Assembly (NCBI GenBank): GCA_963662685.1
Contig: OY759745.1
Location: 17,752-81,751 of the forward strand
Direction: 5' to 3'
Source of the DNA: Bacteroidales bacterium
GTDB lineage: Bacteria > Bacteroidota > Bacteroidia > Bacteroidales > VadinHA17
Length of the DNA: 64,000 nt
Every line of letters starts with the position of its first letter. Positions within the stretch are counted from its first letter, which is position 1. Below the pieces are notes generated by a model. That model was not told where the DNA came from and searched no databases. It saw only the letters and a program-made list of their open reading frames with translations. This document shows positions 5,051 through 25,525 of this stretch, piece after piece. The translations under genes were made by a program, and so were the position numbers.

Positions 5051-5434
5051 TTAAGCCGGAGAGTAGGGAATCAAATCAAAAGGAACCTCTACTATTTCCG
5101 AATATTCTTCACCAGCCTCCTGCATGTCAGTGTCTGACTCAGGATAGTGCCATATAACCTTTATATCAGAACCTGAATCCTTTATATCCTCAAGTTTCAG
5201 AAAAATATCAAGTAATAATTTTGACGACGCTGTATTAAAATATTCAAGTTTTATAGAAAGCTCCATTGTTGTTATTGGATTGTCCATCAATTCGTCAAAC
5301 CAATCCATAATCGGTTTATAAAATAATACCACATCTTCCGGAAGAGATCTTCCGGATATTTCAAAAACCCTGTTCTCCCTGTCCAGAACGACATTGGGAG
5401 TATCCTCCGTGGAGGCAATGTTTATTGTTTCCAT
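5051..5434 (-). CDS. siaC: SiaC-like regulatory phosphoprotein (DUF1987 family)
   Basis: The 127-aa ORF begins TPNVVLDRENRVFEISGRSLPEDVVLFYKPIMDWFDEL and carries LEYFNTASSKLLLDIF, with a Thr at residue 68. It sits in an operon with a PP2C phosphatase and SiaB-like kinases. Confidence 0.75.
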   Translation of the reverse strand: METINIASTEDTPNVVLDRENRVFEISGRSLPEDVVLFYKPIMDWFDELMDNPITTMELSIKLEYFNTASSKLLLDIFLKLEDIKDSGSDIKVIWHYPESDTDMQEAGEEYSEIVEVPFDLIPYSPA

Positions 5435-6027: not shown

Positions 6028-6039
6028 TGCTTATCCTGA

Positions 6040-6597
6040 TTAATAATCAACCCTTGTGCTCAATGAGAAGAAAAAATGTTCTCCGTCTATCTTTTCAAAC
6101 GCGAAATCAATGGCGTTTCCGGTTTTTCTCGCTATTTGGATGAGGCCCAGGCCAAATCCAGATTTACCGGCAACGGTATCATGCTTCAAAAGATTTTTGC
6201 CAAACTCCTTGAGTTCATCTTCGTCCATCATGTTAATCCTTGCCAGCTTATCTTTGAGATCAATCACCTTTTGACGGACAATAACGTTACCACTGTTAAT
6301 GACATATCCATCTTCATTTTTACCTATCATAAAAAGATTTGAGCGACTGTATTTATCTTTCTCACTATGTTGGGTTATGTTCTGCAAACATTCGACCATT
6401 ACCGAAAATACCCTGGCCTTTGTCGTGTGGCTTGAATTAGAATGATTTAACTTGCTCTCTGTAAGATTCAGGAGCGCTATTACGATATCCTGTGACATCT
6501 CTCCCCTGTAACATAGCATAAGCCTGTCATTGTTCATATGGTCTCTTACCGCATTGACATAGCCAAGGTCTGACTGATTTATATCCCCCATTTTCAT
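6040..6597 (-). CDS. SiaB-like Ser/Thr kinase (GHKL/anti-sigma-kinase-like ATPase), copy 1
   Basis: The 185-aa ORF has MLCYRGEMSQDIVIALL and KSGFGLGLIQIARKTG. Its start overlaps the stop of the PP2C gene by 4 nt (6594-6597). Confidence 0.7.
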   Translation of the reverse strand: MKMGDINQSDLGYVNAVRDHMNNDRLMLCYRGEMSQDIVIALLNLTESKLNHSNSSHTTKARVFSVMVECLQNITQHSEKDKYSRSNLFMIGKNEDGYVINSGNVIVRQKVIDLKDKLARINMMDEDELKEFGKNLLKHDTVAGKSGFGLGLIQIARKTGNAIDFAFEKIDGEHFFFSLSTRVDY

Positions 6598-9203: not shown

Positions 9204-9212
9204 AATAGTAAA

Positions 9213-9806
9213 TCAATTATTTGATTTGTTTATCAGAATTAATATCTGATTCGCTATCATTGGCGAAATCATTTCAAAAAAGGCCGCATCATTATCATCA
9301 AACCTTCTAAATGAAGCAAGTTCAATAACAGCCAGTACCTTATCATCACTCTTAACAGGGAATGCGATTAATGATGCGGGATATGCCTTTCCTAAACCTG
9401 ATGTTATCTTAAAACAGTCATCAGGAATCTCTGATATATTAATTAGTCGACCATCTTTTGCCACCTGCCCGGGAATCCCTTCTCCTATTTCCAAAATATC
9501 TATAATATTATCCGGATCCGGTGTTGCGTAACCAGACAAAAACTTCAGCACCGGCTCGCCGTTATGGTCTGAGTTTATGTAAAAGGCGCCCTGGGATATC
9601 TCTTTCTCTTTTGAGAGTGCCGACAACAGCACAAAAGAGTAACTGACTATACTGTTTCCGTCATAATGACAGTTATTTATGAAAGCATCGGATATAGCAA
9701 CAATCCGTTCTTCAAGATTTTCTTCTCTTGTGCTTTTCGATACGATTGTTCCTTTATCGGAATTCATAGCTTTCTTCTTTTTCAGGAACTCAATCATGGC
9801 ATTCAT
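9213..9806 (-). CDS. Stand-alone GAF-domain protein
   Basis: The 197-aa ORF carries GQVAKDGRLINISEIPDDCFKITSGLGKAYPASLIAFPV...VIELASFRRF. This is the same GAF subtype as in 6594-9203 and 27340-29304. Its start overlaps the upstream cheB-like stop by 17 nt. Confidence 0.7.
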   Translation of the reverse strand: MNAMIEFLKKKKAMNSDKGTIVSKSTREENLEERIVAISDAFINNCHYDGNSIVSYSFVLLSALSKEKEISQGAFYINSDHNGEPVLKFLSGYATPDPDNIIDILEIGEGIPGQVAKDGRLINISEIPDDCFKITSGLGKAYPASLIAFPVKSDDKVLAVIELASFRRFDDNDAAFFEMISPMIANQILILINKSNN

Positions 9807-10383
9807 TTTTCAGTTTGTGTATAAAACCTGATATTTCCATATCAGTAAGCACCTCGTGTGGGGTAAAATATTTAAAGACCTCATTGGGCATAGTTCTAAA
9901 GCTTGCGTTATCAGGACTCTGAACTATGGTATACGCACCGTTCCGGTATGCGCTAAACAGCCCTCTGGCACCATCTGAATTGGCACCGGAAAGAATAATG
10001 CCGATCATATTGTTCCTTGCGGCATAACCAGCTGTCATAAATGTAAGATCAAGAGACGGCCGCGAATAGTTAATATCGGGCTCTGTTGAAAGAGCGATTT
10101 TATAACCGGGCTCCACTAACATATGATAATTTGCCGGACTCAGATAAGCAACTCCAGGTTCAATAGTTGTCTTGTCAAGCGGTTCCATTATACGTACCGC
10201 TGACCCTCGGTTCAATGATTCGACAAATCCATTTCTGAATTCCTTGAGCCTGTGCAGACAAAAAAGCAGTGGAAACGGAAAGTTATCGGGAATAGATGAG
10301 AGAATTTTCTGCACCACGGGAAAACTTCCCGCGGATCCCCCTATAACTATTATTTTCATTTTTTCTTTCATTATTTCTCGCAT
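9790..10383 (-). CDS. cheB: CheB-type protein-glutamate methylesterase, catalytic domain only (no receiver domain)
   Basis: A Ser/His/Asp triad context is present: KIIVIGGSAGSFPVVQKIL, LFCLHRL, ILSGANSDGARG. The ORF-track start at 10509 would overlap cheR by 100 nt, so I prefer the internal start MREIMKEKMKIIVIGG at 10383, 26 nt after the cheR stop. Confidence 0.8.
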   Translation of the reverse strand: MREIMKEKMKIIVIGGSAGSFPVVQKILSSIPDNFPFPLLFCLHRLKEFRNGFVESLNRGSAVRIMEPLDKTTIEPGVAYLSPANYHMLVEPGYKIALSTEPDINYSRPSLDLTFMTAGYAARNNMIGIILSGANSDGARGLFSAYRNGAYTIVQSPDNASFRTMPNEVFKYFTPHEVLTDMEISGFIHKLKNECHD

Positions 10384-10408
10384 AAATCCGGTTTGCCGGC
10401 ACAAATAT

Positions 10409-11242
10409 TCAGCCTGCCTTTCTTTTATATATTTTCTCTTCGAAATTTTCTTCAGTAAAATACCTGGCTGCTCTGCACCAACCAATAGACTCCTTTGACC
10501 CCAAACCAAGAAAAGAATCAGGAAGCAACGCTCTACTGAACTTATATATCACTCTATCCTGAAAATCAGAATTGAAATAAATAAGAACATTCCTGCACAA
10601 AATCAGATCATACGATTCTAATGCATTGTTCTGGACAAGATTATGATACCTGAATTCAGTATTTGACAGCAAACCTTTGTTGAAATGAACCGTATTCCCA
10701 ACATGCATATAATAATCACTTAGTTTACGGTTGCCTCCATATTTAACATAGTTACTTTCATAGAGATCCATGTTTTTGACCGGACACTCTCCATGTCGCG
10801 CTATATCAAGTACGTTCCTGTTCAAATCAGTTGCCAGAATTCTTGCCTTGTCCAACATCCCGGACTCCTCAAGTATGATTGCCATAGTATAAACTTCCTC
10901 TCCGGTAGAACATGCCGTTAACCATATATTTAGTTGCCGTCTCTCCTTCAATTGCGGTAGTATTCTGTCTCTTAAGTGAGTCCAAAAAGAGGGATCCCTG
11001 AACATTTCCGTTACGTTAACGGTAATCTGCCACACAAGTTGATCAGCATAGTCTCTGTCAAACCTGACCATCTCTGTCAATGACTTTATTGTCGGAATCT
11101 TATTAATCTCCATGAATCTTACTATTCTGCGTTTGTAAGAAGAAAAAGCATAACCGCCGAAATCAATCCCTGTTGCTTCTCTCAAAGCATCCGAAACCTT
11201 ATGCAAGTCTCCCAACTCAATATTTTTCACCATTGAATCCAA
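10409..11242 (-). CDS. cheR: CheR-type protein-glutamate O-methyltransferase (second copy)
   Basis: TEMFRDPSFW, WLTACSTGEEVYTMAIIL and DLILCRNVLIYFN are classic CheR SAM-MTase motifs. Confidence 0.9.
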   Translation of the reverse strand: MDSMVKNIELGDLHKVSDALREATGIDFGGYAFSSYKRRIVRFMEINKIPTIKSLTEMVRFDRDYADQLVWQITVNVTEMFRDPSFWTHLRDRILPQLKERRQLNIWLTACSTGEEVYTMAIILEESGMLDKARILATDLNRNVLDIARHGECPVKNMDLYESNYVKYGGNRKLSDYYMHVGNTVHFNKGLLSNTEFRYHNLVQNNALESYDLILCRNVLIYFNSDFQDRVIYKFSRALLPDSFLGLGSKESIGWCRAARYFTEENFEEKIYKRKAG

Positions 11243-11738: not shown

Positions 11739-12767
11739 TCAGGATATTGGTTCCTTTACCGCATTTATCCTCATGGTTATGTTATCTATATCCTTAACAA
11801 GATCATAAACCATAAGAAAATGTTTATTTATATTTGTCTGCTCTTTGGATGGTTTAGCGGTAATTCCCTCCAGCTTTCCTCCTTTATCAAGAAAATCTAT
11901 TATTTGCCGCAATGATGTACATATCCTGAGAAAAAGATCTTCATTGCCGTCACCGGTATCACGCATTCCAATAAGATCTATAACCACGTTCTGTATTGTA
12001 TTGGTCGTCGCGGATTCGAGTTCCTGTTCCAGGGAGACAAATATTTCATCATCAAGCGATAAGCTAAGTATCTCAAGCTGAAGATGCTTTATTCTTAGCA
12101 CCTTCTTATATAATTCGACTATTCTTGAGGAACAGAAAAAAATTGATTCGAGGACTTTATCTCCGTCAGGTATATCAATAATCAATAATTCCTTGTCAAC
12201 AAAAAAAACCAACGGCTCATACGTACTACCCTGGATCACATCAGAGTAGTCAATTATAATTTTGTTCCATATTCTCGCGTAACGTTCAAAATCGTTGATA
12301 GTGTTAACCTTTGTTTTTCCCTCGAACATAACAGCCAGAAGAGATTTATCATCAATAGTATCAGTTTTGATTGCAAAATCTTTGAGTAGCTCCGTGTTCA
12401 TGCCTCCAAACCTCCGCAATTCAGAGGCCATTGCTTTTATCTGTTTTAACAATACCACTGGATTGATACTATTCTCTTCAAAATGTGAAGTCAGTTTACT
12501 GGCACCTCTTTTCCCTGTTACACCATGTTCATCAATTTTATTGAGCATTACAGTATTTAAATAAGAGCCGTCAGAGAGCTCCATCCCAAGCAAATCTTCA
12601 ATAAGCTGGCTTTTGTTTTTTTCAATCTCGGCAGTAACATCATTACCTTCTGAATTGGCCGCCAAATCCAACAATTCCATTAACGTTTCAAACTTCCGCA
12701 CAAGCTGTCTTGATTCTATCTCTGTTTTAAGATGATCTATCAGATCAATTGTTGTCTGTATTCGCAT
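11739..12767 (-). CDS. Hypothetical soluble protein, unrecognised family (paralog A); directly follows cheR
   Basis: The 342-aa ORF has no signal peptide or TM helix and no motif I can assign. It is a full-length paralog of 20226-21278. Shared blocks: TIDLIDH.K..IES.QLV.KF, G.RGA..L.H.FE.N, ERYARIW.KII.DYS, I.IP.GD..LESI, YKK.LRI..LQLE, DLF...SL.QI.DF.DKGGK.E. Confidence 0.8.
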   Translation of the reverse strand: MRIQTTIDLIDHLKTEIESRQLVRKFETLMELLDLAANSEGNDVTAEIEKNKSQLIEDLLGMELSDGSYLNTVMLNKIDEHGVTGKRGASKLTSHFEENSINPVVLLKQIKAMASELRRFGGMNTELLKDFAIKTDTIDDKSLLAVMFEGKTKVNTINDFERYARIWNKIIIDYSDVIQGSTYEPLVFFVDKELLIIDIPDGDKVLESIFFCSSRIVELYKKVLRIKHLQLEILSLSLDDEIFVSLEQELESATTNTIQNVVIDLIGMRDTGDGNEDLFLRICTSLRQIIDFLDKGGKLEGITAKPSKEQTNINKHFLMVYDLVKDIDNITMRINAVKEPIS

Positions 12768-12859
12768 ATTAAATATTTTGTATCATCGATTACTTTATGA
12801 TAAATCATTATCCACAAACCAACCGGACTTAAAGAATCATAAATATGTCCACCTCATCA

Positions 12860-13687
12860 TTAATACTTGAGAAATATCGTTGACCGGACCTGATCAAGCG
12901 GGACATCCATATTTGTTATCGATTCCGAATGACCCAGAAAAAAATGGCCACCTGCGCCGAGTTTCCCACATAGCTTGTTTATTACCGCCTCCTGTGTATC
13001 ACGATCAAAATATATCAGCACATTACGACAGAAAATAACATCAAACGGACCCTGAATATTATAATATCCCGACATGAAGTTTAAGCTTTTGAAATCAACT
13101 CTCGACCTGAGTTCAGGGACTATCCTTACAGTTTTCTCCTGCTTATCCTTACTCCGCAGAAAATACTTCTTTTTATAGTATTCTTCGACCTGTGCGATTT
13201 TTTCTTCTGGATATATAGCAACAGTCCCCCTCTGAATCATCCTGTTAGAGATATCTGTTGCCGTAATATGAAAATCAAAATCGCTGCATTTATTTTTAAA
13301 TTCCTGTAAAATCATGGCGATAGTGTATGCCTCCTCACCACTGGAACATCCCGCCGACCATACCCGCATGAATTTCTTACCGTATTCTTTATAAAATACC
13401 GGTAGCAGTTGTTCCGTCAAATAATCAAAATGAACCGGCTCCCTGAAAAAATCAGTTTTGTTAGTTGTGATTATATCCGTCATCAGTACCTTCTCGGCAG
13501 TGCCCTCTCTACTGAACACGAAATCAAGATAATCACTGAAGGAGTGTTTTTGAAGTTCCCTCAAACGGCGTTGTAACCTGCCCTGAAGCATTATCCGTTT
13601 AACATCCGGCATTTTGATCCCCAGTTCTTCCGTAATATATGCCGCCAGTCTTCTAAACTCCTTATCACCTAACTCGATCTGGTTCAT
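12860..13687 (-). CDS. cheR: CheR protein-glutamate O-methyltransferase
   Basis: TDFFREPVHF, VWSAGCSSGEEAYTIAMIL and DVIFCRNVLIYFD. Confidence 0.9.
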   Translation of the reverse strand: MNQIELGDKEFRRLAAYITEELGIKMPDVKRIMLQGRLQRRLRELQKHSFSDYLDFVFSREGTAEKVLMTDIITTNKTDFFREPVHFDYLTEQLLPVFYKEYGKKFMRVWSAGCSSGEEAYTIAMILQEFKNKCSDFDFHITATDISNRMIQRGTVAIYPEEKIAQVEEYYKKKYFLRSKDKQEKTVRIVPELRSRVDFKSLNFMSGYYNIQGPFDVIFCRNVLIYFDRDTQEAVINKLCGKLGAGGHFFLGHSESITNMDVPLDQVRSTIFLKY

Positions 13688-13797
13688 TTTGATATATCGG
13701 TAAATTCAGGGCACCGCCCATTGATCTCCACTCATATCCAACCGCATAACCCCGGCGCCCTGAGAACCTACTTAAAAAAATCCAACCCGACAACTCA

Positions 13798-15786
13798 TCA
13801 AAATTTCTCATAATCTTCATTAAGAGGGTCATTACCACTAATATTAACGGCACGGCCATGTTTCCTTTTCTGATCCTTTCCGCACACATTCCCATCGTTA
13901 TCCAGCCCAATAATCCTCTGTTTATCATCTGTTGATGCATTGTCTGCCATTTTTTTCCGAAATTCACCCGGAAGGCTGAAAAAAGAGACATTATCAAGAA
14001 GTTTTTCCGACTGTATAGCCAACGCTTCTGAACTGGTAGCGACCTCTTCAGAAGCGGAGGCGTTCTGTTGCGTCACCTGGTTCAGTTGCTGGATCGCACT
14101 GTTAACCTGTTCACTTCCAGAATTCTGTTCAGTACTCGCGGCAGCGATCTCCTGAACCAGTCTTGCCGTCTTTTCGATATCCGGTATTATCGATTCCATG
14201 AGTTCACCGGCCTCCTTTGTCATCTTAAGTGATCTTTTTGAGAGATTATCTATCTCCACCGCGGAAACCTGGCTCCTCTCCGCCAGACGTCTTACCTCGG
14301 TAGCCACTACAGCGAAACCTTTGCCGTGTTCTCCCGCCCTTGCCGCCTCAACGGCGGCATTCAAAGCCAGAATATTTGTTTCACGGGCAATCTCTCCAAT
14401 TATTGATACCTTATTTGCTATCTCTTCAACATTAATCAAGGTATTTCTTGCGGCAGCGGCAACGTTTTTTATCCCGTCAGCGGCTTTAACCGCAATTAAC
14501 CGGGTCTCCTGGGCGTTCTCCATATTCTGCTGAATATTGGCCGCCATCTCTTCCATTGACGATGATATCTCCTCAACTGACGAAGCCTGTTCAGATGCTC
14601 TCTGGCTCATCTCCTGTGAGGTAGAACTTAGTTGCTGACTGGAACCGGACATATTTTCCGCAACCATCTGAAATTCCGAGATAACCCTAGCTACAGAGCT
14701 TGCCATTTCCGAGAAAGATTGCATCAAATCATCATTTTCTGACCGTTTCCGCAAATCAACGGTCAGGTCGCCATGCGCTATCAATCTCGCCTTTTCCGTA
14801 ATCTCATCCAGGGTTTGAATCAACTGGTTCACGTTATTCTTGATCGCGTTAAAATCACCTTTATACTCTTCAATTATTTCTTCGGGAATATCGCCTATCG
14901 AAATCTTTTCAACATAGTTAGCGGATACTTTAAGGGGATTTACCAACGCATCAAGAACATCATTTAACCCGACCGTTATTTCGCGAAACTCAAAATTGGT
15001 AGTTCCCGTGTCAATTCGTGAATCAAGGTTACCGTTCAAAGCATCATCAACCAGCTTCTTAATCTGAAGTACAATGGATTTTATTATACCATTGATATTC
15101 GCAGATATCCATAATCCAACAATTATCGCGAACAAAATCCCGGCTATTATACTAATGATCAAAAATACAGTAACATTTTTCACATCTGAAACGGCGGATA
15201 TACTGGCATTTTCAGCATTACGTACCTGCATTTCTGATATTTTCTGAACATCTTCTTCACAAAGAGCCAAAACCGTACTAACCTCACTATTATAATACAC
15301 AAAAAGCTGGTAATCAAGAGTAATGCACCTAATATCTTCATTATCCAAACCCTCATCCATCATATCAGTTCTTGTATTATAATAATGGGTATATGTCTCC
15401 CCAATTGTCCTCCATGTATTAAGGTTTGAAATGAAAGAATCCCATAAAGCCTGCTCACTGGCATCCTTTTCGAACGTATTAAATTTTTCAATCTGTTCAT
15501 CCATCTCTTTCAGACGGTTCTGAATCCTGTCGGCCATTTCCCTTCTTTCCTGAACGCTATATCCATTGTTTAATAGCGCATATTCATCTGATTTGATATC
15601 TGTTTGCAGAAACTGTATCCTCGAAATAGTCTGCAGTGAGGGAATAGACTTGGACAACATCGAATCCTGGGCATCCATTGAAGTATTCATTCCTTTATAG
15701 CCAACAAAACCAACCAATATGATAATAATTGACAGGAACAAAAAACTGGTATAAAGCTTTATACGTATTGATAAATTATTCAACAT
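13798..15786 (-). CDS. Methyl-accepting chemotaxis protein (four-helix-bundle-type periplasmic sensor, HAMP, MA domain)
   Basis: The hairpin-tip signature is [41 protein letters not shown]. There are two TM segments and HAMP-like regions. The C-terminal tail is ...NEDYEKF. Confidence 0.95.
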
Positions 15787-15788
15787 AA

Positions 15789-16319
15789 CTATTGTTCTCC
15801 TGGTTTTAAATCTTTGGATTTACCGTCTAAATCTGCTTGGTTCAGCGCCTCATTGAAATCGATAATTTCCTCTGTAGCGAATACTTTATCGATATTCAGA
15901 ATCATAATGAAATTAGAGTCGCATCTTTTCATGCCACTTATGAATCCCGCATTATACTTTGTACCAATTGAAGGGGAGTCAACTATTTCCTCGTCCCTGA
16001 ACTCCAGCACTTCTTTGACCGCATCAACCAACACGCCTACCATCAGTTCTTCATTATTCTTGTTAATGCTCAAAACTATTATGCTGGAATCAACAGTTAT
16101 CTCGTTTTCCCTGAGTCCGAATTTTATCCTCATATCGACAACGGGAAGCACATTACCTCGCAAGTTTATTACGCCTTTCATATAGTCTGGCGATTTAGGC
16201 ACTTTAGTTATAGGACTCATCTCCAGGATATTTAAAACCTTGGATACATTGATCGCAAAAACTTCTTCTCCCAGTTTAAATGAAAGATATGTTTGTATAG
16301 CAGTTTGTTCTGTATTCAT
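15789..16319 (-). CDS. cheW: CheW coupling protein
   Basis: [23 protein letters not shown]...[19 protein letters not shown], a typical CheW fold signature. Its stop is 2 nt from the MCP start. Confidence 0.9.
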
Positions 16320-16369
16320 AACTTCTGTAATTGTTTGATCTTACACACAGGTATATATTCGGTAACTCT

Positions 16370-16825
16370 TTATAGAGAAAATGTAATAGGAATCATATAC
16401 CATACAGGGACGGGGACCCCGTCTTTTTTGCCCGGAATAAAGTTGTTCATTGTCTGTATAATCCTCATAGCTTCTTTATCAAGATCAGTATCGACACTTT
16501 TAAGAACACTGACCATTGTCACACTACCTTTAGCGGTTACGCAAAACTTAACAACAACCTTGCCCTGTATTCCTCTCTCCATTGCCCTGACCGGATATTT
16601 AATATTATTGCTGATGTAATCAACCATAGCGGAATTGCCGCCAGGGTACATTGGCATCTCTTCCACTGCTACATACGGTTCTATATCCGCTCCACCAGCA
16701 GCATTGCTCCCAGAGGAATTCTGTCCATTCATCACATTATTGAATAGAATTCCCGAAGTAATAACTAGCACTATGATTCTTAAGAATCGTAGATTTTTTT
16801 CATTGTAATAAAAATGATGTTTCAT
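16370..16825 (-). CDS. TonB C-terminal-domain protein (single TM anchor plus TonB_C)
   Basis: VEEMPMYPGGNSAMVDYISNNIKYPVRAMERGIQGKVVVKFCVTAKGSV...IPGKKDGVPVPVWYMIPITFSL is a TonB_C pattern. I prefer the ATG at 16825 (MKHHFYY...) over the GTG at 16864. Confidence 0.75.
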   Translation of the reverse strand: MKHHFYYNEKNLRFLRIIVLVITSGILFNNVMNGQNSSGSNAAGGADIEPYVAVEEMPMYPGGNSAMVDYISNNIKYPVRAMERGIQGKVVVKFCVTAKGSVTMVSVLKSVDTDLDKEAMRIIQTMNNFIPGKKDGVPVPVWYMIPITFSL

Positions 16826-16966
16826 CAGAATATAATTTAATTTTAATTGACTGAAGGAACCCACATGTCTCTTATCAGACGCATCAGTTCATGCGCGAAA
16901 TCTACATTTGGGTTATATAAAATGGAATTAATTGTTCATAGTTTCAAAAATACCTTTCAGAGAAAA

Positions 16967-18844
16967 CTAAAACCTCTCATAATTAGCGTCATGGGCATCT
17001 TTGTTCATGTTGATGGTAACGCCCCGTTTTGCTTTGTTTGAGGACCCGTTTGGTTTAGAATGTTTTTTATCCGGCAAGTTATTGTTGGCTATATTGACAT
17101 TCGCTCCCATTTTAAGACCATGTCGCTCCATAGAAACCATTTCTGATTTCAGTTTAAAGAAAGAGATCATTTCCAGTAGTTGTTGTGCCTGGCTTGCCAG
17201 TTCTTCTGAACTTGTTGCCATCTCTTCTGAAGCGGCGGCATTTTGCTGGGTAACCTGGTTAAGTTGCTGAATGGCGCTGTTTACCTGGTTAGCGCCGGAG
17301 TTTTGCTCAATACTTGCGGCAGCGATCTCCTGAACAAGCTTAGCCGTTTTTCCGATCTCAGGAGCGATAGCTCCAAGCAGTTTCACTGATTCCTCGGTAG
17401 CATTGACACTATTTTTAGTCAGGTTATCAATTTCAACGGCTGATAACTGGCTTCTTTCCGCAAGTTTCCTCACCTCAGCGGCCACAACCGCGAATCCCTT
17501 TCCGTGCTCTCCGGCCCTTGCCGCTTCAACTGCGGCATTAAGAGCCAGAATATTCGTCTGACGGGCTATTTCTCCAATAATCGACACCTTGTCGGCTATA
17601 TCTCTCATATAGTTCAAAGTCTGGTCAGAAGCCTCTTTTACCTTGCTTATGCCCTCAGACGCATTAAAGGCTATCTTTTCTGTCTGTTGGGCGTTCTCCG
17701 TATTTTGTTGAATATTGGCAGCCATCTCTTCCATTGAAGAAGAAACCTCTTCGGCTGAAGAGGCTTGTTCAGATGCGCCCTGACTGAGCTCTTGTGAAGT
17801 GGAACTCATCTGTTCACTTGAAGCTGAAATATTGTTGGCGGCCGATTGGAATTCAGTAATAATCCTGGCCGTAGATTTAACCATATCGGTCAACGACTGT
17901 AAAAGATGATCATTATCAGAACGCTTTTTAAGATCTACAGTCAGGTCACCAGAGGCGACCATTTTTGCTTTTACCACAATATCGTTCAGAGTATTTATGA
18001 GAAGATTCAAATTACTGATAATTATATTAATATCTCCTTTATACTTATCAGTAATCACAGATGGCATATCACCTATAGAAATCTTTGAAATATAGTCAGC
18101 CGCAAGATCTAACGGTGTAACAAGCGAATCAACGACATTATTAAGGCCCTTTGTTATGCCCCTGAATTCAAAGTTTGTCCTCATAACATCGGCCCTTATT
18201 TTAAGGTTCCCGTCCAGAACACCGTCAACAACATCTTTTATCTGATTGTTTACTGCAGTAATATTGTTTTGAATGGACCTTCCAAGAACAAGACCAAGAA
18301 TTATAGCCAGGGCCACTCCAATTAATATAGCGACAACCGTAGCGTTTCTTGTTACGTTTATCACATGGAGAAGATCATCCTCATATATAGTTGTGGATAC
18401 ATACCACTCGGCCGGCTCGTAATAAGTGAAATGCTGGTATTTTATACGTCCTTCCCATTCATACGTGATCTTTCCTTCACCCATAGCGATCATCTCTTTA
18501 AAAAAGTCCTCGTTAGCTATATTATCGCCCTCACTGGTCGGATGAATTATAAACGTCCCGCCTTTATCTACAACATAGCCATAACCATTCGTATAAAACT
18601 TTTTCTCGTTGAAAATTTCTTTTAAAACTGTGAGGTCACTGTCCCTGTGTATACCAATCTGCAAATCGATCATCTGTTTCATATCGGACACCTGTTCAAA
18701 GAGTCTGTCATCAGAGTCGGATATTACGGATTTCCTTTGATTCCTAATGGAATATAACCCAAAGATTATCAATATTACACAAACAGCGAGACTTAGGGTA
18801 ACACTGAGTTTAGCACCTGTAGTCAGATCATTGATTTTTTTCAT
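16967..18844 (-). CDS. Methyl-accepting chemotaxis protein (single-Cache-like periplasmic sensor, HAMP, MA domain)
   Basis: Cache-like [20 protein letters not shown]. Signalling tip [42 protein letters not shown]-terminal tail ...DANYERF. I prefer the ATG at 18844 (MKKINDL...) over the TTG at 18871. Confidence 0.95.
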
Positions 18845-19061
18845 TTTTACATGCTTAAAAGTTTCAAACAATTATGGTCTTGATATTTAGATTTACTTAA
18901 TCACTGAAAATTAAGACAACAGCATTACCATATCCAGTACCGTATTGGGTTTTATGATCCATCTCTTTCCCGTTTTTCAGCAATATCAAATGTAGTTAAG
19001 AACAAACTCCAGTTTTAGAGAATTGTCACCTGAAATACTTCCAGGTTACACCTGTTTATCT

Positions 19062-19077
19062 CAGGTATTTTTACCTG
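19062..19077. promoter_or_regulatory. Palindrome CAGGTA-TTTT-TACCTG, candidate operator about 200 bp upstream of the MCP gene, with extra half-sites nearby
   Basis: Read directly. Additional ACCTG/CAGGT half-sites lie at 19028-19032, 19042-19046 and 19050-19054. A candidate -7 box (TACATTTG on the minus strand) lies at 18987-18994. Confidence 0.45.
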
Positions 19078-19130
19078 TGACAACTGGTGGTTTACTCTTA
19101 CATATTACGATTGTATCAGGCTGGGAACCA

Positions 19131-20207
19131 TTAAACTCCCGACAGTACTAAAGGTATTTTATCCAATGGCAGGATTCTGCAAACAGAATTGAGCTTAATT
19201 GCTTCCTTTGGCATTCCGAAGACAACACAACTTTCCTCGTCCTGGGCGACGGTAAGTGCACCCGCTTCTTTCATCTCAAGTAATCCCCTGGCACCATCAT
19301 CCCCCATTCCTGTCATTATTATGCCTATAGCGTTTGCTCCGGCGAACTGGGCCGCTGATCTGAACAGTACATCAACGGAAGGCCTGTGCCTGTTAACCAG
19401 GGGACCGTCAGTGATCTTAACATAATATCTGGCACCACTTCTTTTAACAAGCATATGCTTGTTTCCCGGAGCGATCAGGGTGTGCCCCCTTAAAATGCTA
19501 TCCCCGTCTTCAGCTTCTTTGACATTGATCCTGCATGACTGGTTCAATCTGTTAGCAAATGATTTGGTAAACATTTCAGGCATGTGCTGGACAATAACGA
19601 TACCAGGAGAATCAGAAGGCAAAGCTTCAAGAAATCGGGCAATAGCCTCTGTTCCTCCTGTTGAAGCGCCAACAACCACGACTTTCTCGGTTGTTTTGAT
19701 CATACTCTGTTTTCTCATGGAAGACAATACTACATCAGCGCTATATTTTGGAGGAACCGTAACGGGAATCTGACCGAAAGCATATTTCAGTTTCTTTTGT
19801 CTGCCTTTTGTCATCGCGGCAGCCCTGACAGCATCGCATAATACGATCTTCGACTCCTCAAAAAATTCCTTTGTGGCAAGTTGCGGTTTTGTTATTATCT
19901 CAACAGCGCCAAGCTCCATAGCTCTCATAGCTGTTTCAGTACCACTGGCTGTAAGACTCGATATTATCACCACCGGAATAGGATGTTGGGTCATAATTTT
20001 TCTGAGAAAAGTAATACCATCCATCCTTGGCATCTCAATATCAAGAGTTATCACGTCAGGTACTTCTTCTTTGATTATATGCGCCGCACGATAAGGATCT
20101 GAGGCTGTATCCAAAACCTCAAGCATAGGGTCAGATATGAATATTTCCTTTAATACCTGGCGTACCAGCGCTGAATCATCAACTATCAGTACTTTGATTT
20201 TCTTCAA
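19131..20207 (-). CDS. cheB: CheB methylesterase, full length (REC + catalytic domain)
   Basis: REC motifs: [29 protein letters not shown]. Catalytic motifs: [30 protein letters not shown]. The start is TTG: an in-frame TAG lies 2 codons upstream, and the next Met would truncate the REC domain. Confidence 0.9.
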
Positions 20208-20225
20208 AACTATTTTATTAACAGA

Positions 20226-21278
20226 TTATTCCTCCTTAGAAACAACTCCAGTTCCACCTATTATATCACATATTTTGAAAGAAACATTATCTATCTCATC
20301 AACAAGATGGTATGCCGTAAGAAACAGTTTATTACCCTTGGCAAGGGCTTCAGAATCTTTTGAAGAAACGCATTCTATTTTTCCTCCCTTATCAATAAAA
20401 TCAAGGATCTGTCCCAAAGATGACATTATACTTACAAAAAGGTCGTCGTTGTCAGTCACATCATTAATATCGTTCATATTCATCAGCTCGGCGACAACTT
20501 TCCTTGATGTTTTTTCAACAATGGTTTTGGCCTCGAATTCCAAAGCCTCATAAATTTTGTCGTCAAGAGCAAGAACAACGGCTTCAAGCTGAAGCTTCCT
20601 TATTCTTAATATCTTTTTGTACGCATCTATAATGCTAGTCGCGCCATAAGATATGGATTCAAGAATACTGTCTCCTCCAGGTATCTCAATAACCATATAT
20701 TCCTTATCAAGGTATCGTATTTTTGGTTTGATCTCAGATGCGCTGATCAAACAGGAGTAATCCCGTATAATCTTGTCCCATATCCTCGCATATCTCTCTA
20801 TATCACCGATAGAGTTGATACCCGCGCTTCCCTCAAATATCAAAGTCAACAAGGATTTGCCATTATCCGGTTCCTTTTCGTCAACAAACAGCTTTAACAG
20901 GTCAGTATCGGTATGTTTCAACTTGTTGATCTCATCTATCATTATTGTGATCTGCTGTAATAATCCCGCAGGATTAGTCCTGTTGGTCTCAAAAATATGA
21001 ACAAGATTCCTGGCGCCCCTTTCACCAACGACTCCATATTTATCGATTTTAGCCAGCATCCTGAATCGTGAATACAACCAGTCAGCTGACTCGATACCCG
21101 TCAAGTCGTCGATCAATCCTGCTTTAGATTTTTCAATATCAACAATAAGATTTTCACTTCCAGACTTGGATATCATCCGAACCATTTCCAGCAGTCCGTC
21201 AAATTTTGAAACAAGTTGTTTCGATTCTATCTGCCTTTTTATGTGATCAATTAGATCAATGGTCGCTTGTGCCAGCAT
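20226..21278 (-). CDS. Hypothetical soluble protein, unrecognised family (paralog B); between cheD and cheB
   Basis: Paralog of 11739-12767. The ATG at 21278 (MLAQATIDLIDH...) aligns with the paralog A N-terminus (MRIQTTIDLIDH...). The track start at 21323 is a TTG. The gene overlaps the cheD 3' end by 23 nt. Confidence 0.8.
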   Translation of the reverse strand: MLAQATIDLIDHIKRQIESKQLVSKFDGLLEMVRMISKSGSENLIVDIEKSKAGLIDDLTGIESADWLYSRFRMLAKIDKYGVVGERGARNLVHIFETNRTNPAGLLQQITIMIDEINKLKHTDTDLLKLFVDEKEPDNGKSLLTLIFEGSAGINSIGDIERYARIWDKIIRDYSCLISASEIKPKIRYLDKEYMVIEIPGGDSILESISYGATSIIDAYKKILRIRKLQLEAVVLALDDKIYEALEFEAKTIVEKTSRKVVAELMNMNDINDVTDNDDLFVSIMSSLGQILDFIDKGGKIECVSSKDSEALAKGNKLFLTAYHLVDEIDNVSFKICDIIGGTGVVSKEE

Positions 21279-21762
21279 AATATATATTTTGTATCTGTTT
21301 TTCGATATATCTGTGAATAACAACGCCCTTACAAGTATCGAAAGCTATTTTTCTCCCTTGGGCGCCCCCTGTACACGCCCCGGCAATCCTGATATTATAC
21401 TGCTTGAGCGTTTCCATGGCGACTTCAATATTTCTTTCTCCGATGTTAAACTGTGAGGCCATTGTCTGCAGTACTTCTCCTCCTCCAAAAACCTTTGCTA
21501 TTATGTTCCTCCTGTCACATCCAATCTCAAGCATCTTATCTAGCAGTTTTATTATAGCTATGTTTCCAAACTTGGGAGACGCAAGTCCCTGCCCATTCCA
21601 GAGAGGCAGCATATAATGGTTAATTCCGCCATATTCAAGTATTGGATCCCACAAACAAACCGACACGCATGAACCTAATATAGTGGTAACCATGGTCGGC
21701 TTCTTTGAGGCAAACAGTGTCGATGGAAAAAGAAAATGATCTGTATAATCGACCCGTTCCAT
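21256..21762 (-). CDS. cheD: CheD chemoreceptor glutamine deamidase
   Basis: MVTTILGSCVSVCLWDPILEYGGINHYMLP...KVFGGG...IGERNIE, the CheD signature with catalytic Cys/His context. Confidence 0.85.
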   Translation of the reverse strand: MERVDYTDHFLFPSTLFASKKPTMVTTILGSCVSVCLWDPILEYGGINHYMLPLWNGQGLASPKFGNIAIIKLLDKMLEIGCDRRNIIAKVFGGGEVLQTMASQFNIGERNIEVAMETLKQYNIRIAGACTGGAQGRKIAFDTCKGVVIHRYIEKQIQNIYYAGTSDH

Positions 21763-22643
21763 CAGAAAACCTCATTACGTGACGAAATCTCCGAGCCCTC
21801 TTCCCCAAAAAGATCATAGATACTTGTAACGTCCGCAGCTTCAGGGATATATAATCTGAATTCTGACCCCTGTCCGATATGGCTTGTCAACGATATGTTG
21901 CCATCAAGCAGTTCTGTCAGCGACCTGACTATCGCCAATCCGAGACCATGCCCCCTGTTCAGAGAATTTATCCTGTCGTCGACCCTCTTGAACCTGTCAA
22001 AAATCAGCTCTTTATTATCCTCCTCAATACCAATTCCGTCATCCCTTACAGCTACCATTATTCCTTCGCCACATTTTTCCATATTAACACTGACACGCCC
22101 GTTTTCAGTATATTTTACGGCATTACTTATTAGATTGGAGATAATAAGCTTTATTTTTTCTTCATCGATATAAAAAAAACTGTCAGGTAAACCTTTCGCC
22201 AGTACCAGGGAGACGTTCCTGCTGTCCGCTTCATGCCTGAAAGAGTCCATAATATTGTTAATAATCTCTACAATATTAACTTTTGACGCCTCTATATATA
22301 GTTCCCCTGCCTCAATCTTTGCACTGGCAAAAATATTTTTAAGCTGAAAATCAAGGCTGAAAGCTTCATCATAGATCAATCTGATCATATTGTATACTTT
22401 CTCCGGGACTAAACTCTTCATCATCAAGAGGTTTCTCGATAAGCCCAATATTGATGCGAAGGGATTGATTATCTCATTTGTTATGCTGGAAATAAAATGA
22501 GTCTTAAGTGCCTCTGATTCTACTAATTTTTCATTGGCGCTGACAAGCTCCTTTGACAATTCCTGTTGCTCCAAGAGCATATTTTTATACTCGCTGAACC
22601 TGCGTTCAAGTTCGTTCAATAGCTGTTCCTCCGAGATTTTCAT
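21762..22643 (-). CDS. Cytoplasmic histidine-kinase-like protein (coiled coil, DHp, HATPase_c) with the phospho-acceptor His replaced by Asn
   Basis: The H-box region KTHFISSITNEIINPFASILG aligns in register with the canonical [21 protein letters not shown], giving H->N. The CA domain looks intact: N-box NLISNAVKYT, G1 DDGIGI, F IFDRFKRV, G2 GHGLGLAIV. The C-terminus is ...SRNEVF. Confidence 0.8.
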   Translation of the reverse strand: MKISEEQLLNELERRFSEYKNMLLEQQELSKELVSANEKLVESEALKTHFISSITNEIINPFASILGLSRNLLMMKSLVPEKVYNMIRLIYDEAFSLDFQLKNIFASAKIEAGELYIEASKVNIVEIINNIMDSFRHEADSRNVSLVLAKGLPDSFFYIDEEKIKLIISNLISNAVKYTENGRVSVNMEKCGEGIMVAVRDDGIGIEEDNKELIFDRFKRVDDRINSLNRGHGLGLAIVRSLTELLDGNISLTSHIGQGSEFRLYIPEAADVTSIYDLFGEEGSEISSRNEVF

Positions 22644-22673: not shown

Positions 22674-24707
22674 TCATTCTCTATATGAAAACGAACTGAT
22701 TATTTTATTGGGGTCCAGCAATAGGGCAACGGTTCCATCACCCAGAATAGTAGCCCCAGAAATCAGTTCCTGTTGTTTGTACATCAAACCGAGAGTCTTC
22801 AGAACCGCCTGATATTCACCAATAACGTGATCCACTGCCAGTCCAAAAAAAGTATCCCCCTGTCTTATCACTACAACTTCCTCATTAGCAGGAGACTCGG
22901 TTTTGATATTGAACTCTTTCCTAAGATATATGAAAGGTATATGTCCGTCATTGACATAAATAAGATTATTGACCGGGTTTATCAGTTCCTGGTGTTTAAA
23001 CTCCATGCACTTGTTAACAAAATTCAGGGGAATAACAAAAAACGAGTTATCTATACTTACAAGGAGCCCATCAATAATTGAAAGAGTCAATGGAAGTTTT
23101 AATATTATGGTCGTTCCTTTGTCAATTTCGGATTTTATTTCCACTTCCCCCCTGAGTTCGGATATTTTTCTCTTAACCACATCCATACCCACGCCCCTGC
23201 CTGAAATTTTCGTTATGCTTTCGGAAGTAGAAAAACCCGGAAGGAAAATAAAATCCAAAATATCCTTGCCGGCCACATCCTCATCAGAAGAAATAAGGCC
23301 TGAATCCAATGCGCGTTTTTTTATTCTTACCGGATCTATTCCTTTTCCATCGTCGGAGATCTCCATAATAACGTTAGCCCCAGAATAATAAGCTTTCAGT
23401 CTTATTTCTCCACGTTGAGGTTTACCCTTTTCCTTCCTGACTTCAGGGCATTCAATACCATGATCAATACTGTTCCTAATAATATGCATTATAGGGTCCA
23501 CCAATCCTTCTATCATATTTTTGTCCATTTCAGTATCGGTTCCTTCTGTCTGAAAGGCGATATCTTTGTTCATCTCATTTGACAACTCCCTTACCAGGCG
23601 TTGAAAACGGGTAACCATATTTTCAACAGGAATAAGCCTAATGCCAAAAGTATTATCCCTCAACCGGCGGGTGATCTTTTCGATATCCTCAGAAAGCTGC
23701 ATCAGTTCTTTATTATCAATACGCTCTGAAACAAGGGAAAGTCCGGCCTGACGTGTTACCAACTCACTTACAAGATTGATAAGTTCATCCAGCTTATCTG
23801 AAGAAACGCGTATGCTTGATATATTATTTTCTCTGATCGCCCTCTGGACTTTTTCAGTATGCTCCTCTGGTACCGGACCAACTTTATTAGGTTTGCGTCC
23901 CTCCGCGATACCTTCAATATCTGATACCTGTATCTTGTCTGAAGTAACCGCCGCATCGAGAAGCTTAATGAATTCCTCATCAGACAAAAGATCCTTGTCG
24001 CTTATCTTCTTAATCAACAGATTACAATCAAGATCCACAAAAATGAAAACATCCCGTATATCCTTCTCCGACACCTCGGTTGACAGAACAATTACCCAGG
24101 ACACATAACATGAATGGACGTCGAGTTCCGCGAAATCAGGTATTTTCGCAAGTCCCGGAATCACCCTGGATGTTCCTAGAGTTGTCAGTTCCTTAACGGT
24201 AAGTAACGGATTCGTACCATTTTTCAAAATATCTTTTTTCGGTTCAAAGCAGATATAATATGTTGACTTCCCCCCCATGATGGTACCGGATGTTTTTTCA
24301 TTGCTTTCATTTCCTTCATCATTTCCGGTATTTGGGCCCAATAGTCCGGCTATAGACTTCAACAACATCTCATGATTATCCAAAGTCTCAGGGGACAACT
24401 TATCATCCTCACTAAGCAGAACTTTAATATGGTCAATCGATTTAAATGTAATGTCCATAAAATGGTCGGTTACAATATCCTGACCACTTCTTATCCTGTC
24501 AAAGGCGGATTCCATCTGGTGGGTAAAAAAATCAATCTTATCAAAACCAAACATAGCGCTGGCGCCCTTAAGTGAATGCATTGCCCTGAAGATAACTTCA
24601 ATATGCTCTTCATTAGTAGGATCTTCGCTAAGTTTAAGAGAGGATTTTTCTAGATCCAGAATAAGATCAAGAGCCTCTTCAATAAATTTGTACTTGAATT
24701 GTTCCAT
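22674..24707 (-). CDS. cheA: CheA histidine kinase
   Basis: Hpt H-box AMHSLKGASAMFGF. Kinase motifs: HIIRNSIDHGIE, DDGKGID, GRGVGMDVV. A C-terminal CheW-like domain is present. Confidence 0.95.
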   Translation of the reverse strand: MEQFKYKFIEEALDLILDLEKSSLKLSEDPTNEEHIEVIFRAMHSLKGASAMFGFDKIDFFTHQMESAFDRIRSGQDIVTDHFMDITFKSIDHIKVLLSEDDKLSPETLDNHEMLLKSIAGLLGPNTGNDEGNESNEKTSGTIMGGKSTYYICFEPKKDILKNGTNPLLTVKELTTLGTSRVIPGLAKIPDFAELDVHSCYVSWVIVLSTEVSEKDIRDVFIFVDLDCNLLIKKISDKDLLSDEEFIKLLDAAVTSDKIQVSDIEGIAEGRKPNKVGPVPEEHTEKVQRAIRENNISSIRVSSDKLDELINLVSELVTRQAGLSLVSERIDNKELMQLSEDIEKITRRLRDNTFGIRLIPVENMVTRFQRLVRELSNEMNKDIAFQTEGTDTEMDKNMIEGLVDPIMHIIRNSIDHGIECPEVRKEKGKPQRGEIRLKAYYSGANVIMEISDDGKGIDPVRIKKRALDSGLISSDEDVAGKDILDFIFLPGFSTSESITKISGRGVGMDVVKRKISELRGEVEIKSEIDKGTTIILKLPLTLSIIDGLLVSIDNSFFVIPLNFVNKCMEFKHQELINPVNNLIYVNDGHIPFIYLRKEFNIKTESPANEEVVVIRQGDTFFGLAVDHVIGEYQAVLKTLGLMYKQQELISGATILGDGTVALLLDPNKIISSFSYRE

Positions 24708-24814: not shown

Positions 24815-25180
24815 TCAGTTAAGCACCTTGTAAATAGCGCTTATAAGCTTGGCGGGTACAAAAGGTTTAATGATCCACCCAGTAGCACCGGCATCCCTGG
24901 CTTCAAGTTTCTTTTCCACCTGAGATTCGGTGGTAAGGAACAAAATAGGAATCAGCTTATAGTTCTCGTTATTTCTAACTGCCTTAATCAGCTCAATACC
25001 ATTCATAACTGGCATGTGTAAATCAGTTATAATAAGATCAATCTTATCGCCGTTAAGGAATTTAAGAGCGTCGTGTCCGTTAATCCCCACTTTTACCTTG
25101 AACCCCTCGTTCTCTAGAGTAAAAGAGACCACTTCTCTTATACTCTCTGAATCATCTACGATTAAAATAGTTCGTTCCAT
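24815..25180 (-). CDS. cheY: CheY single-domain response regulator
   Basis: ILIVDDSE, IITDLHMPVMNG, LFLTTES and WIIKPF: all receiver signature residues are present. Confidence 0.9.
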   Translation of the reverse strand: MERTILIVDDSESIREVVSFTLENEGFKVKVGINGHDALKFLNGDKIDLIITDLHMPVMNGIELIKAVRNNENYKLIPILFLTTESQVEKKLEARDAGATGWIIKPFVPAKLISAIYKVLN

Positions 25181-25198: not shown

Positions 25199-25525
25199 TT
25201 ATTGCCTAATGTTTATCATGTCCCCAAATCCGGTATTACACATAAGATCAACCACATAAATTTCATCATCGCAATTAATCAACAACGATTGCCCCATATC
25301 TGCCAACTTTTTTCGATATGAGTAAAGCACCTGTATGCTGGTCAGGTCATATGAATCTATATTTCTAAGGTCAATTACGACATTGCTCCCATCCGGGTTC
25401 AACGATTCAAGGGCATGTTTCAGATTAATTATTTCCTTTACTGCGATATCGCCCTCAAGTTTAATATGATAAAGGTTATCGCTTTCATTTGTACCCGATT
25501 GTATTTTGAATCCTGTATTACTCAT
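25199..25525 (-). CDS. STAS-domain protein (anti-sigma-antagonist-like)
   Basis: The 108-aa ORF has the pattern IKLEGDIAVKEI...VVIDLRNIDSYDLTSIQVLYSYRKKL. The Ser in IDS sits at the position phosphorylated in SpoIIAA/RsbV-type proteins. Confidence 0.7.
   Translation of the reverse strand: MSNTGFKIQSGTNESDNLYHIKLEGDIAVKEIINLKHALESLNPDGSNVVIDLRNIDSYDLTSIQVLYSYRKKLADMGQSLLINCDDEIYVVDLMCNTGFGDMINIRQ

What the first reader, a model, noticed from the sequence alone, without database searches (positions are those of the whole stretch)
11739..21278. Two paralogous proteins of unrecognised family embedded next to the adaptation enzymes
Seen: 11739-12767 (342 aa) and 20226-21278 (about 350 aa) align over their full length. 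By eye roughly a third or more of positions are identical; this was not computed. Strongly conserved blocks are TIDLIDH.K..IES.QLV.KF, ERYARIW.KII.DYS, YKK.LRI..LQLE and DLF...SL.QI.DF.DKGGK.E. Neither has a signal peptide, a TM helix or any Che/two-component motif I recognise. One follows cheR by 92 nt. The other overlaps the cheD stop by 23 nt and ends 18 nt before cheB. Inference: duplication and retention inside one Che cluster, each copy beside a receptor-modifying enzyme, suggests a new accessory component of the adaptation or array machinery. One possibility is a functional replacement for the missing CheC partner of CheD.
Basis: partly seen in the sequence, partly recalled or inferred. 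Interest (0 to 1): 0.75.

Follow-up and report, generated by a model that had tools for sequence, protein, structure and literature searches.

The report
Unnamed protein pair inside chemosensory cluster
Two related genes of a widespread but never-named protein family sit among the receptor-modifying enzymes of a non-flagellar chemosensory gene cluster in a Bacteroidota genome. One branch of that family is always found in this kind of cluster, so it is probably a new accessory part of it, though what it does remains untested.

Summary
Window 11739-12767(-) (A, 342 aa) and 20226-21278(-) (B, 350 aa) are full-length paralogs: 46% identity, E 1e-102. The stated distances to cheR, cheD and cheB are correct. 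Neither matches Pfam, NCBIfam, PADLOC, PHROGs or any PDB sequence. A confident AlphaFold model (pLDDT 93) has no Foldseek match in PDB or BFVD.

The family is real and large: 724 representative clusters, nearly all about 350 aa. It is not restricted to Che clusters. Of 12 sampled lineages, 5 are Che-embedded, 1 is coupled to a REC-PAS-REC protein and 6 stand alone in unrelated contexts.

All Che-embedded members form one clade, named Bacteroidota where a name exists. There are 23 distinct loci in two fixed orders: CheR-HK*-CheD-X-CheB, or X-CheR-HK*-CheD-CheB. HK* is a conserved histidine kinase whose phospho-acceptor His is Asn.

Family-wide conserved residues are only G, F and W. The Che clade adds a polar set: E161, R165, E249, Q290 and K297. 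The best reading is a non-enzymatic accessory or adaptor of the adaptation module. A "CheC replacement" is not supported, and HK* is the better phosphatase candidate. The duplication is specific to this genome's lineage.

The parts
20226..21278 (-). Paralog B (350 aa), called X here: the orthologous, CheD-coupled copy of the unnamed family
   Evidence: It overlaps the CheD stop by 23 nt, as do its orthologues in L001, L018 and L019. The AF2 model has pLDDT 93.
11739..12767 (-). Paralog A (342 aa): the lineage-specific extra copy, last gene before a 497-nt gap
   Evidence: It keeps all 57 invariant columns of alignment A1. It sits on a long branch, sister to B and B's orthologues. No second copy is seen in any other locus.
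21256..21762 (-). CheD deamidase
   Evidence: Pfam CheD, E 3e-24. It aligns to T. maritima CheD 2f9z_C with the T...GSC...H residues kept.
21762..22643 (-). HK*: a 293-aa HisKA/HATPase protein with the phospho-acceptor His replaced by Asn. It always accompanies CheD and X.
   Evidence: It aligns to HK853 with 'SHELRTP' replaced by 'TNEIINP'. The H-to-N change is present in all 12 orthologues.
19131..20207 (-). CheB (REC + methylesterase), immediately downstream of B
12860..13687 (-). CheR, immediately upstream of A
13798..15786 (-). MCP (4HB-HAMP-signalling) ending in DYEKF
15789..16319 (-). CheW
16370..16864 (-). TonB_C protein; not part of the cluster in relatives
16967..18871 (-). MCP (Cache-HAMP-signalling) ending in NYERF
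22674..24707 (-). CheA
24815..25180 (-). CheY
25199..25525 (-). STAS (anti-sigma antagonist-type) protein
25538..27322 (-). 594-aa conserved protein with no family match; the first gene of this cluster type
10409..11242 (-). Second CheR; starts the downstream unit
9790..10509 (-). REC-less CheB methylesterase. The true start is probably downstream of the mechanical TTG.
9213..9806 (-). GAF protein
6594..9203 (-). GAF-PAS-PAS-SpoIIE (PP2C) phosphatase: the partner-switch output
5452..6597 (-). Two DUF6272 proteins
5051..5434 (-). SiaC-family regulatory phosphoprotein

Best explanation
A and B are paralogs of an unnamed family of soluble, acidic proteins of about 350 aa. Each has an N-terminal six-helix domain and a C-terminal domain of long helices packed on a four-stranded sheet. 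One clade of this family was recruited into a non-flagellar chemosensory pathway with a partner-switch output, found in Bacteroidota.

In that pathway the protein (X) is a fixed member of the receptor-modification operon segment, together with CheR, a His-less histidine kinase (HK*), CheD and CheB.

The most likely mode of action is non-enzymatic. I infer that X is an adaptor or regulatory subunit that binds one or more of CheD, HK* and CheB/CheR through a clade-specific polar surface (E149, E161, R165, Q230, E249, Q290, K297, N316). Through that binding it would tune receptor deamidation/methylation, or couple CheD to HK*.

B is the orthologous copy, translationally coupled to CheD. A is a lineage-specific duplicate, left behind after CheR when the operon was duplicated and rearranged. 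A is still under constraint.

Shown: paralogy, family size, lack of known relatives, clade-specific synteny, conservation pattern. Inferred: binding partners and effect on adaptation.
For: Paralogy: 46% identity, E 1e-102.

Family:
- 724 representatives with E<=1e-3 and 277 with E<=1e-10, nearly all full length at about 350 aa.
- No Pfam hit shared by more than 1 of the 106 members scanned, and no credible PDB sequence match.
- AF2 model with pLDDT 93 and pTM 0.87.

Synteny:
- The order CheR-HK*-CheD-X-CheB occurs in window B, L001, L007, L018-L027, L029, L030, L037, L038 and the P0006 and P0017 contigs.
- The order X-CheR-HK*-CheD-CheB-DUF6272-SiaC occurs in L013, L028 and L031-L036.
- The distance from the CheD stop to the X start ranges from -23 to about +70 nt.
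- All Che-linked members fall in one NJ clade.

Conservation:
- Family-wide near-invariant residues are only G85, F148, W167, F294, G298 and G299.
- E161, R165, E249, Q290 and K297 are 87-98% conserved in the Che clade and at most 58% outside it.
- X evolves faster than the enzymes of the cluster: 58% identity to the L001 orthologue, against 71-88% for CheR, HK*, CheD, CheB and CheY. This is typical of adaptors.
- A keeps all invariant columns of alignment A1.
Against: - No physical or genetic evidence of any interaction exists.
- Half of the sampled family lineages are outside any Che or two-component context. The core activity of the fold is therefore not chemotaxis-specific.
- The 21 metagenomic loci were retrieved with motifs derived from the Che clade, so their uniform context is partly built in.
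- The family-wide 'F-I-E/D-K-G-G' and 'D-L-E...W' motifs could mark a small-molecule site that I cannot assess.
- Foldseek was run on the whole chain only. A domain-level match to a known fold is not excluded.
Confidence: 0.5

Rival explanations
1. X is the functional replacement of CheC. It binds CheD by mimicking the receptor substrate and/or dephosphorylates CheY-P.
For: CheD is present with an intact catalytic motif. No CheC, CheX or CheZ domain was found in any cluster protein. X is translationally coupled to CheD in arrangement (i).
Against: - There is no CheC Pfam match in any of 106 members.
- There is no [DS]xxxExxN-x22-P motif and no receptor-like [ASTG]2xx[EQ]2xx[ASTG]2 motif in A or B.
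- No CheC or CheX structure appears among the top 50 Foldseek PDB matches listed.
- The only residues conserved across the whole family (G, F, W) are not catalytic types.
- In arrangement (ii), X is separated from CheD by CheR and HK*.
- HK* keeps the E and N of the HisKA phosphatase motif and lacks the His, so it is the better phosphatase candidate.
Confidence: 0.1
2. X is a target or partner of the His-less kinase HK*: a phosphoprotein or regulatory subunit of the partner-switching output, rather than of receptor adaptation.
For: - HK* and X co-occur in every Che-linked locus long enough to show both.
- HK* keeps its ATP-binding boxes but cannot autophosphorylate on the canonical His.
- The cluster carries STAS, PP2C, DUF6272 and SiaC partner-switch parts.
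- The basal relative P0067 is translationally coupled to a REC-PAS-REC protein.
Against: No Ser or Thr is invariant across the Che clade in the conservation table. X always sits among CheR, CheD and CheB, not next to the STAS, PP2C or SiaC genes. There is no precedent that I could test.
Confidence: 0.15
3. X is a passenger: a protein with a general, chemotaxis-unrelated role that happens to be fixed inside this operon.
For: Half of the sampled lineages are stand-alone genes. Their neighbours include a restriction-modification system, an FKBP isomerase and planctomycete-type PSD/PSCyt genes. The core motifs are shared by Che and non-Che members.
Against: - Position is conserved in 23 distinct loci, across about 25% identity and through an operon rearrangement.
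- X overlaps CheD.
- The Che clade has its own set of conserved polar residues.
- The extra copy A is retained intact.
Confidence: 0.15
4. X is a soluble sensory (input) module. It binds a ligand and passes the signal to the modification enzymes or the receptors.
For: The family-wide KGG and DLE...W motifs lie at helix-strand junctions and could form a pocket. In arrangement (ii), X follows two hemerythrin genes.
Against: There is no recognisable sensor domain. No pocket analysis was possible. The conserved residues are mostly structural types.
Confidence: 0.08

Closest known systems
CheC/CheX/FliY phosphatases as CheD partners (B. subtilis, T. maritima; PDB 2F9Z)
   Same: An auxiliary protein encoded next to CheD in a Che operon. 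It would fill the empty 'CheD partner' slot in a cluster without CheC.
   Different: There is no sequence, motif or fold similarity. X is about 350 aa and mostly helical with two domains. No candidate catalytic residues are conserved family-wide. The family also occurs outside Che clusters.
Ancestral ('stage 1') F7 chemosensory cluster of Vibrio cholerae / Methylomicrobium (Ortega et al. 2020, PMC7184735)
   Same: Both have the gene set STAS-cheY-cheA-cheW-MCP-cheR-cheD-cheB plus a serine phosphatase, and a function that is non-flagellar or unknown.
   Different: The window's cluster type inserts HK* and X into the cheR-cheD-cheB segment. It adds the 594-aa protein, a second CheR/CheB pair, and DUF6272 and SiaC. 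It is in Bacteroidota rather than gamma-proteobacteria. The class of its CheA was not determined.
His-less HisKA kinases such as DivL (PDB 4Q20); relevant to the neighbour HK*, not to X
   Same: HK* has the full DHp + CA architecture with the phospho-acceptor His substituted. DivL is among its PDB sequence hits.
   Different: DivL carries Tyr and HK* carries Asn. HK* has no sensor domain and is embedded between CheR and CheD.
SiaABC-type partner-switch modules (P. aeruginosa; PMC7647112, PMC8457831)
   Same: The cluster's downstream genes include a PP2C phosphatase and a SiaC-family protein.
   Different: This concerns the pathway output, not X. No SiaD-type cyclase was seen in the cluster.

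Membership tests
CheC/CheX/FliY | Match to the Pfam CheC-like domain | tested here: not met
   A and B have no Pfam hit at E<=0.01. None of the 106 family members hits a CheC or CheX model.
CheC/CheX/FliY | Active-site motif [DS]-x3-E-x2-N-x22-P | tested here: not met
   A regex search of A and B found none.
CheC/CheX/FliY | CheC-type alpha/beta fold | tested here: not met
   Foldseek of the pLDDT-93 model against PDB gave a best E of 5e-3 and TM<=0.21. No CheC or CheX chain is among the top 50 matches listed.
CheC/CheX/FliY | Binds CheD and dephosphorylates CheY-P | not testable with these tools
   This needs biochemistry or multimer modelling.
CheZ | Match to Pfam PF04344 | tested here: not met
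   Only 1 of 106 members matches, at E 0.0039.
MCP signalling domain (soluble receptor-like protein) | Profile similarity to MCPsignal, or methylation-site motifs | tested here: not met
   hhalign of A2 against the cluster MCP gives probability 0.6%. No methylation-type motif is present.
P-loop NTPase | Conserved Walker A motif | tested here: not met
   A chance match occurs in A only (AVMFEGKT). It is absent in B and not conserved.
Any curated protein family (Pfam-A, NCBIfam, PADLOC, PHROGs) or solved structure | Significant profile or sequence match | tested here: not met
   The only hits are spurious: GMP reductase at E 0.045 and a de novo four-helix design at E 6e-4.
Chemosensory-pathway auxiliary component (operational definition) | Conserved gene position inside Che operons across divergent lineages | tested here: met
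   23 distinct loci in two fixed arrangements, forming a monophyletic clade.
Chemosensory-pathway auxiliary component (operational definition) | Family restricted to Che neighbourhoods | tested here: not met
   6 of 12 sampled lineages are in unrelated contexts.
Chemosensory-pathway auxiliary component (operational definition) | Physical or functional interaction with Che proteins | not testable with these tools
   Structure-prediction jobs were exhausted and are single-chain only.

The most novel reading that the evidence does not exclude
X is a new class of chemosensory auxiliary protein with a previously unseen fold. Together with CheD and a His-less histidine kinase acting as phosphatase, it forms a three-part module that replaces the CheC-CheD feedback loop in non-flagellar Che pathways of Bacteroidota. 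The wider family would be a general signalling adaptor.
Probability: 0.25. Interest if true: 0.8.

Novelty: new variant of a known kind. Interest (0 to 1): 0.6.

Why it matters
The catalogue of chemosensory auxiliary proteins (CheC, CheD, CheV, CheX, CheZ) has been stable for years. How CheD works in the many clusters without CheC is still open.

Here a conserved trio accompanies the adaptation enzymes of a Che pathway in bacteria that have no flagella. The trio is a His-less kinase, CheD and an unnamed protein with no detected fold match. The pathway's output looks like a partner switch.

If X and HK* prove to be functional partners of CheD, that would define a new solution for signal termination or adaptation. 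It would also give a first function to a family of several hundred sequence clusters that no database names. All known members come from uncultured organisms, which limits immediate testing.

Tried and rejected
Family and structure searches with no meaningful result:
- Pfam, NCBIfam, PADLOC and PHROGs scans of A, B and diverse members.
- PDB sequence searches with single sequences and with the 106-member profile gave only spurious hits.
- Foldseek against PDB with the shallow model (pLDDT 69) and the deep model (pLDDT 93), and against BFVD, gave no match with E<=1e-3 or a meaningful TM-score. The weak recurrent RF1/RF2 and M16-protease hits have TM 0.1-0.2 and were rejected.

Searches for the origin of A:
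- Remnants of HK*, CheD or CheB next to A to document the duplication: none found.

Wider collections:
- tblastn of B and of a non-Che member against PLSDB plasmids: no match.
- The word-indexed search with the broad profile returned only 12 proteins.

Profile comparisons and motifs:
- hhalign of the family profile against the cluster MCP and the 594-aa protein showed no relation.
- Literature searches for DUF6272, for a CheD partner in the absence of CheC, and for Che/SiaC partner-switch clusters found no description of this protein.
- The idea that X tethers CheR/CheB to receptors lacking a pentapeptide was dropped, because both MCPs end in xYExF tails.
- A Walker-A-like string in A is not conserved.
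Full report
**Observation**

All genes of the region lie on the minus strand. A is 11739-12767 (342 aa). B is 20226-21278 (350 aa). The mechanical ORF of B extends to a TTG at 21323, but the ATG at 21278 aligns with the invariant first Met of all orthologues.

BLASTP of A against B gives 46% identity over 336 residues with two gaps, E 1e-102.

Pfam identifies the neighbours as stated: CheR (12860-13687), CheD (21256-21762) and CheB (19131-20207). The 92-nt gap, the 23-nt overlap and the 18-nt gap are all correct.

Neither protein has a hydrophobic stretch compatible with a TM helix; the maximum 19-residue Kyte-Doolittle mean is 1.0-1.1. Neither matches any Pfam or NCBIfam model.

**The cluster**

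Read 5' to 3' on the minus strand, the cluster is:
- HAMP-GAF-PAS protein
- a 594-aa protein with no family
- STAS, CheY, CheA
- a 293-aa HisKA/HATPase protein (HK*)
- CheD, then B, then CheB
- Cache-MCP, a TonB_C protein, CheW, 4HB-MCP
- CheR, then A, then a 497-nt gap
- a second CheR, a REC-less CheB, GAF
- GAF-PAS-PAS-SpoIIE phosphatase, two DUF6272 proteins, SiaC, an ABC transporter

A T9SS type-B sorting-domain protein elsewhere in the window places the genome in Bacteroidota. So do the names of relatives: a Bacteroidales MAG, 'Bacteroidetes bacterium GWE2_29_8', and Bacteroidales and Bacteroidota MAGs. From general knowledge, Bacteroidota are a phylum without flagella.

The cluster resembles the ancestral 'stage 1' F7 cluster described by Ortega et al. 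(PMC7184735). That cluster has STAS, cheY, cheA, cheW, MCP, cheR, cheD, cheB and a serine phosphatase. The window's cluster adds extra parts, among them HK* and the protein studied here.

**The family**

- The word-indexed search found only nine proteins.
- The exhaustive profile search with these found 724 representative clusters at E<=1e-3, 277 at E<=1e-10 and 47 at E<=1e-30. Nearly all are about 350 aa and matched end to end. This is a genuine, sizeable family.
- Sources that name its members call them only 'hypothetical protein'.
- A Pfam scan of 106 diverse members gave no shared hit.
- A PDB sequence search with the profile gave nothing credible. PADLOC and PHROGs gave nothing.
- With eight sequences AlphaFold gave pLDDT 69. 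With 106 sequences it gave pLDDT 93 and pTM 0.87.
- The model has a six-helix N-terminal domain (residues 1-130). The C-terminal domain has four helices of 22-33 residues and one of 23, packed with a four-stranded sheet.
- Foldseek of this model found no match at E<=1e-3 in PDB or BFVD. TM-scores were about 0.1-0.25.
- Only whole-chain searches could be run, so a domain-level resemblance is not excluded.

**Genomic context**

Close and intermediate relatives sit in the same kind of cluster. I sampled P0002, P0006, P0013 and P0017 individually. A metagenome scan returned 21 further loci. I screened them with the window's own Che proteins.

Two arrangements recur:
- Arrangement (i), CheR-HK*-CheD-X-CheB, in 16 distinct X sequences including B. 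The distance from the CheD stop to the X start ranges from -23 to about +70 nt.
- Arrangement (ii), X-CheR-HK*-CheD-CheB-DUF6272-SiaC, in 7 distinct sequences. In two of these loci that I examined (L028 and L035), X is preceded by two hemerythrin genes.

The scan's motifs came from the Che clade, so the scan does not measure the whole family. Independent sampling of other lineages gave stand-alone genes in unrelated settings:
- next to a BglII-type restriction-modification system and a Ser/Thr kinase (P0159)
- among unknowns (P0133)
- next to AHSA1 and FKBP genes (P0015)
- next to planctomycete-type PSD/PSCyt genes (P0085)
- between oppositely oriented genes (P0033 and P0051)

One member near the base of the Che clade overlaps a REC-PAS-REC gene by 4 nt (P0067).

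In a neighbour-joining tree all Che-linked members form one clade and all unrelated-context members lie outside it. The tree is a quick distance tree without support values.

**Conservation**

Across the family only G85, F148, W167, F294, G298 and G299 are nearly invariant. None of these is a catalytic type.

The Che clade additionally conserves a polar set: E149, E161, R165, Q230, E249, Q290, K297 and N316. These are 75-98% conserved in the Che clade. In the rest of the family the same residue is either much less frequent or not the commonest one. This is what a clade-specific binding surface would look like.

Between the window and the Bacteroidales MAG, X is 58% identical. CheR, HK*, CheD, CheB and CheY are 71-88% identical.

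**The duplication**

Every other locus has one copy, and the window has exactly two. A keeps all 57 invariant columns of the close alignment, so it is not decaying. It sits on a long branch as sister to B plus B's orthologues. The duplication therefore either predates those lineages or A evolved faster.

Compared with the MAG's order (CheA-CheW-MCP-CheR-HK*-CheD-X-CheB), the window's order fits a tandem duplication of the CheW-to-CheB segment followed by reciprocal deletions. That would leave A after CheR. No remnants are detectable, so this scenario remains an inference.

**Neighbours that bear on mechanism**

HK* aligns over its length to HK853 (E 4e-30). At the H-box it reads 'TNEIINP' where HK853 reads 'SHELRTP'. 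The His-to-Asn change is present in all 12 orthologues examined. The Glu and the Thr/Asn position of the HisKA phosphatase motif are retained, as are the ATP-binding boxes.

From established knowledge of HisKA kinases, that motif is what phosphatase activity needs. HK* is therefore a plausible dedicated phosphatase or pseudokinase.

CheD keeps the residues aligned with the catalytic Thr/Cys/His of T. maritima CheD. Both MCPs end in xYExF pentapeptide-like tails, so a tethering role for X is unnecessary.

**Interpretation**

The best-supported reading is that X is a non-enzymatic accessory or adaptor subunit of the receptor-modification module of this pathway type. It would have been recruited from a broader family of soluble proteins of unknown role. 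I put this at about 0.5.

The specific proposal that X replaces CheC is not supported:
- no CheC domain, motif or fold
- only G, F and W conserved across the whole family, none a catalytic type
- separation from CheD in arrangement (ii)
- a better phosphatase candidate next door

The alternatives cannot be excluded with the tools available. They are a target or partner of HK*, a passenger gene, and a soluble sensor.

**Novelty**

The protein family is unnamed and shows no detectable relative. The idea of lineage-specific accessory proteins in Che clusters is known. I found no paper describing this one. Legends in Campylobacterota surveys merely mark 'hypothetical proteins' and a histidine kinase inside some Che classes. 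I rate it a new variant of a known kind, with moderately high interest.

Noticed in passing
window 21762-22643 (-): This 293-aa histidine-kinase-like protein has Asn in place of the phospho-acceptor His ('FISSITNEIINPF'). The change is conserved in all 12 orthologues. The ExxN phosphatase motif and the ATP boxes are intact. It is a possible dedicated phosphatase or pseudokinase and always accompanies CheD and X.
   Followed up: partly
window 25538-27322 (-): A 594-aa protein with no Pfam match, encoded just upstream of STAS-CheY-CheA. It is conserved at the same position in L001, L007 and L027. It is a second unnamed component of this cluster type.
   Followed up: partly
window 13798-15786 (-) and 16967-18871 (-): Both MCPs end in pentapeptide-like tails (DYEKF and NYERF). 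These resemble the CheR/CheB tethering motif xWxxF.
   Followed up: no
L035 9040-9884; L028 8090-8946: In the alternative arrangement X-CheR-HK*-CheD-CheB, two tandem hemerythrin genes lie directly upstream of X in both loci examined.
   Followed up: no
contig of P0067 (no DNA held): A family member near the base of the Che clade overlaps a REC-PAS-REC response-regulator gene by 4 nt. This hints at a wider link of the family to two-component signalling.
   Followed up: no
window 5051-11242 (-): The downstream unit runs CheR2, REC-less CheB2, GAF, GAF-PAS-PP2C, two DUF6272 proteins, SiaC and an ABC transporter (1886-4963). It is conserved in L001, L029 and L037. It looks like a SiaABC-like partner-switch output of a Che pathway.
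   Followed up: partly
window 11243-11738: A 497-nt non-coding gap lies after A and contains a GGAGGA...TCCTCC hairpin. No gene remnant was detectable and no consensus terminator was called on the minus strand.
   Followed up: partly
window 16370-18871 (-): A Cache-MCP and a TonB_C protein are inserted between CheB and CheW. They are absent from the corresponding position in the closest relative, L001.
   Followed up: no
L005 10414-14993: A non-Che family member (P0133) lies 5.4 kb from a CheB-CheR-PAS fusion, a HisKA_3 kinase and a KaiC-like ATPase. This is probably coincidental.
   Followed up: no
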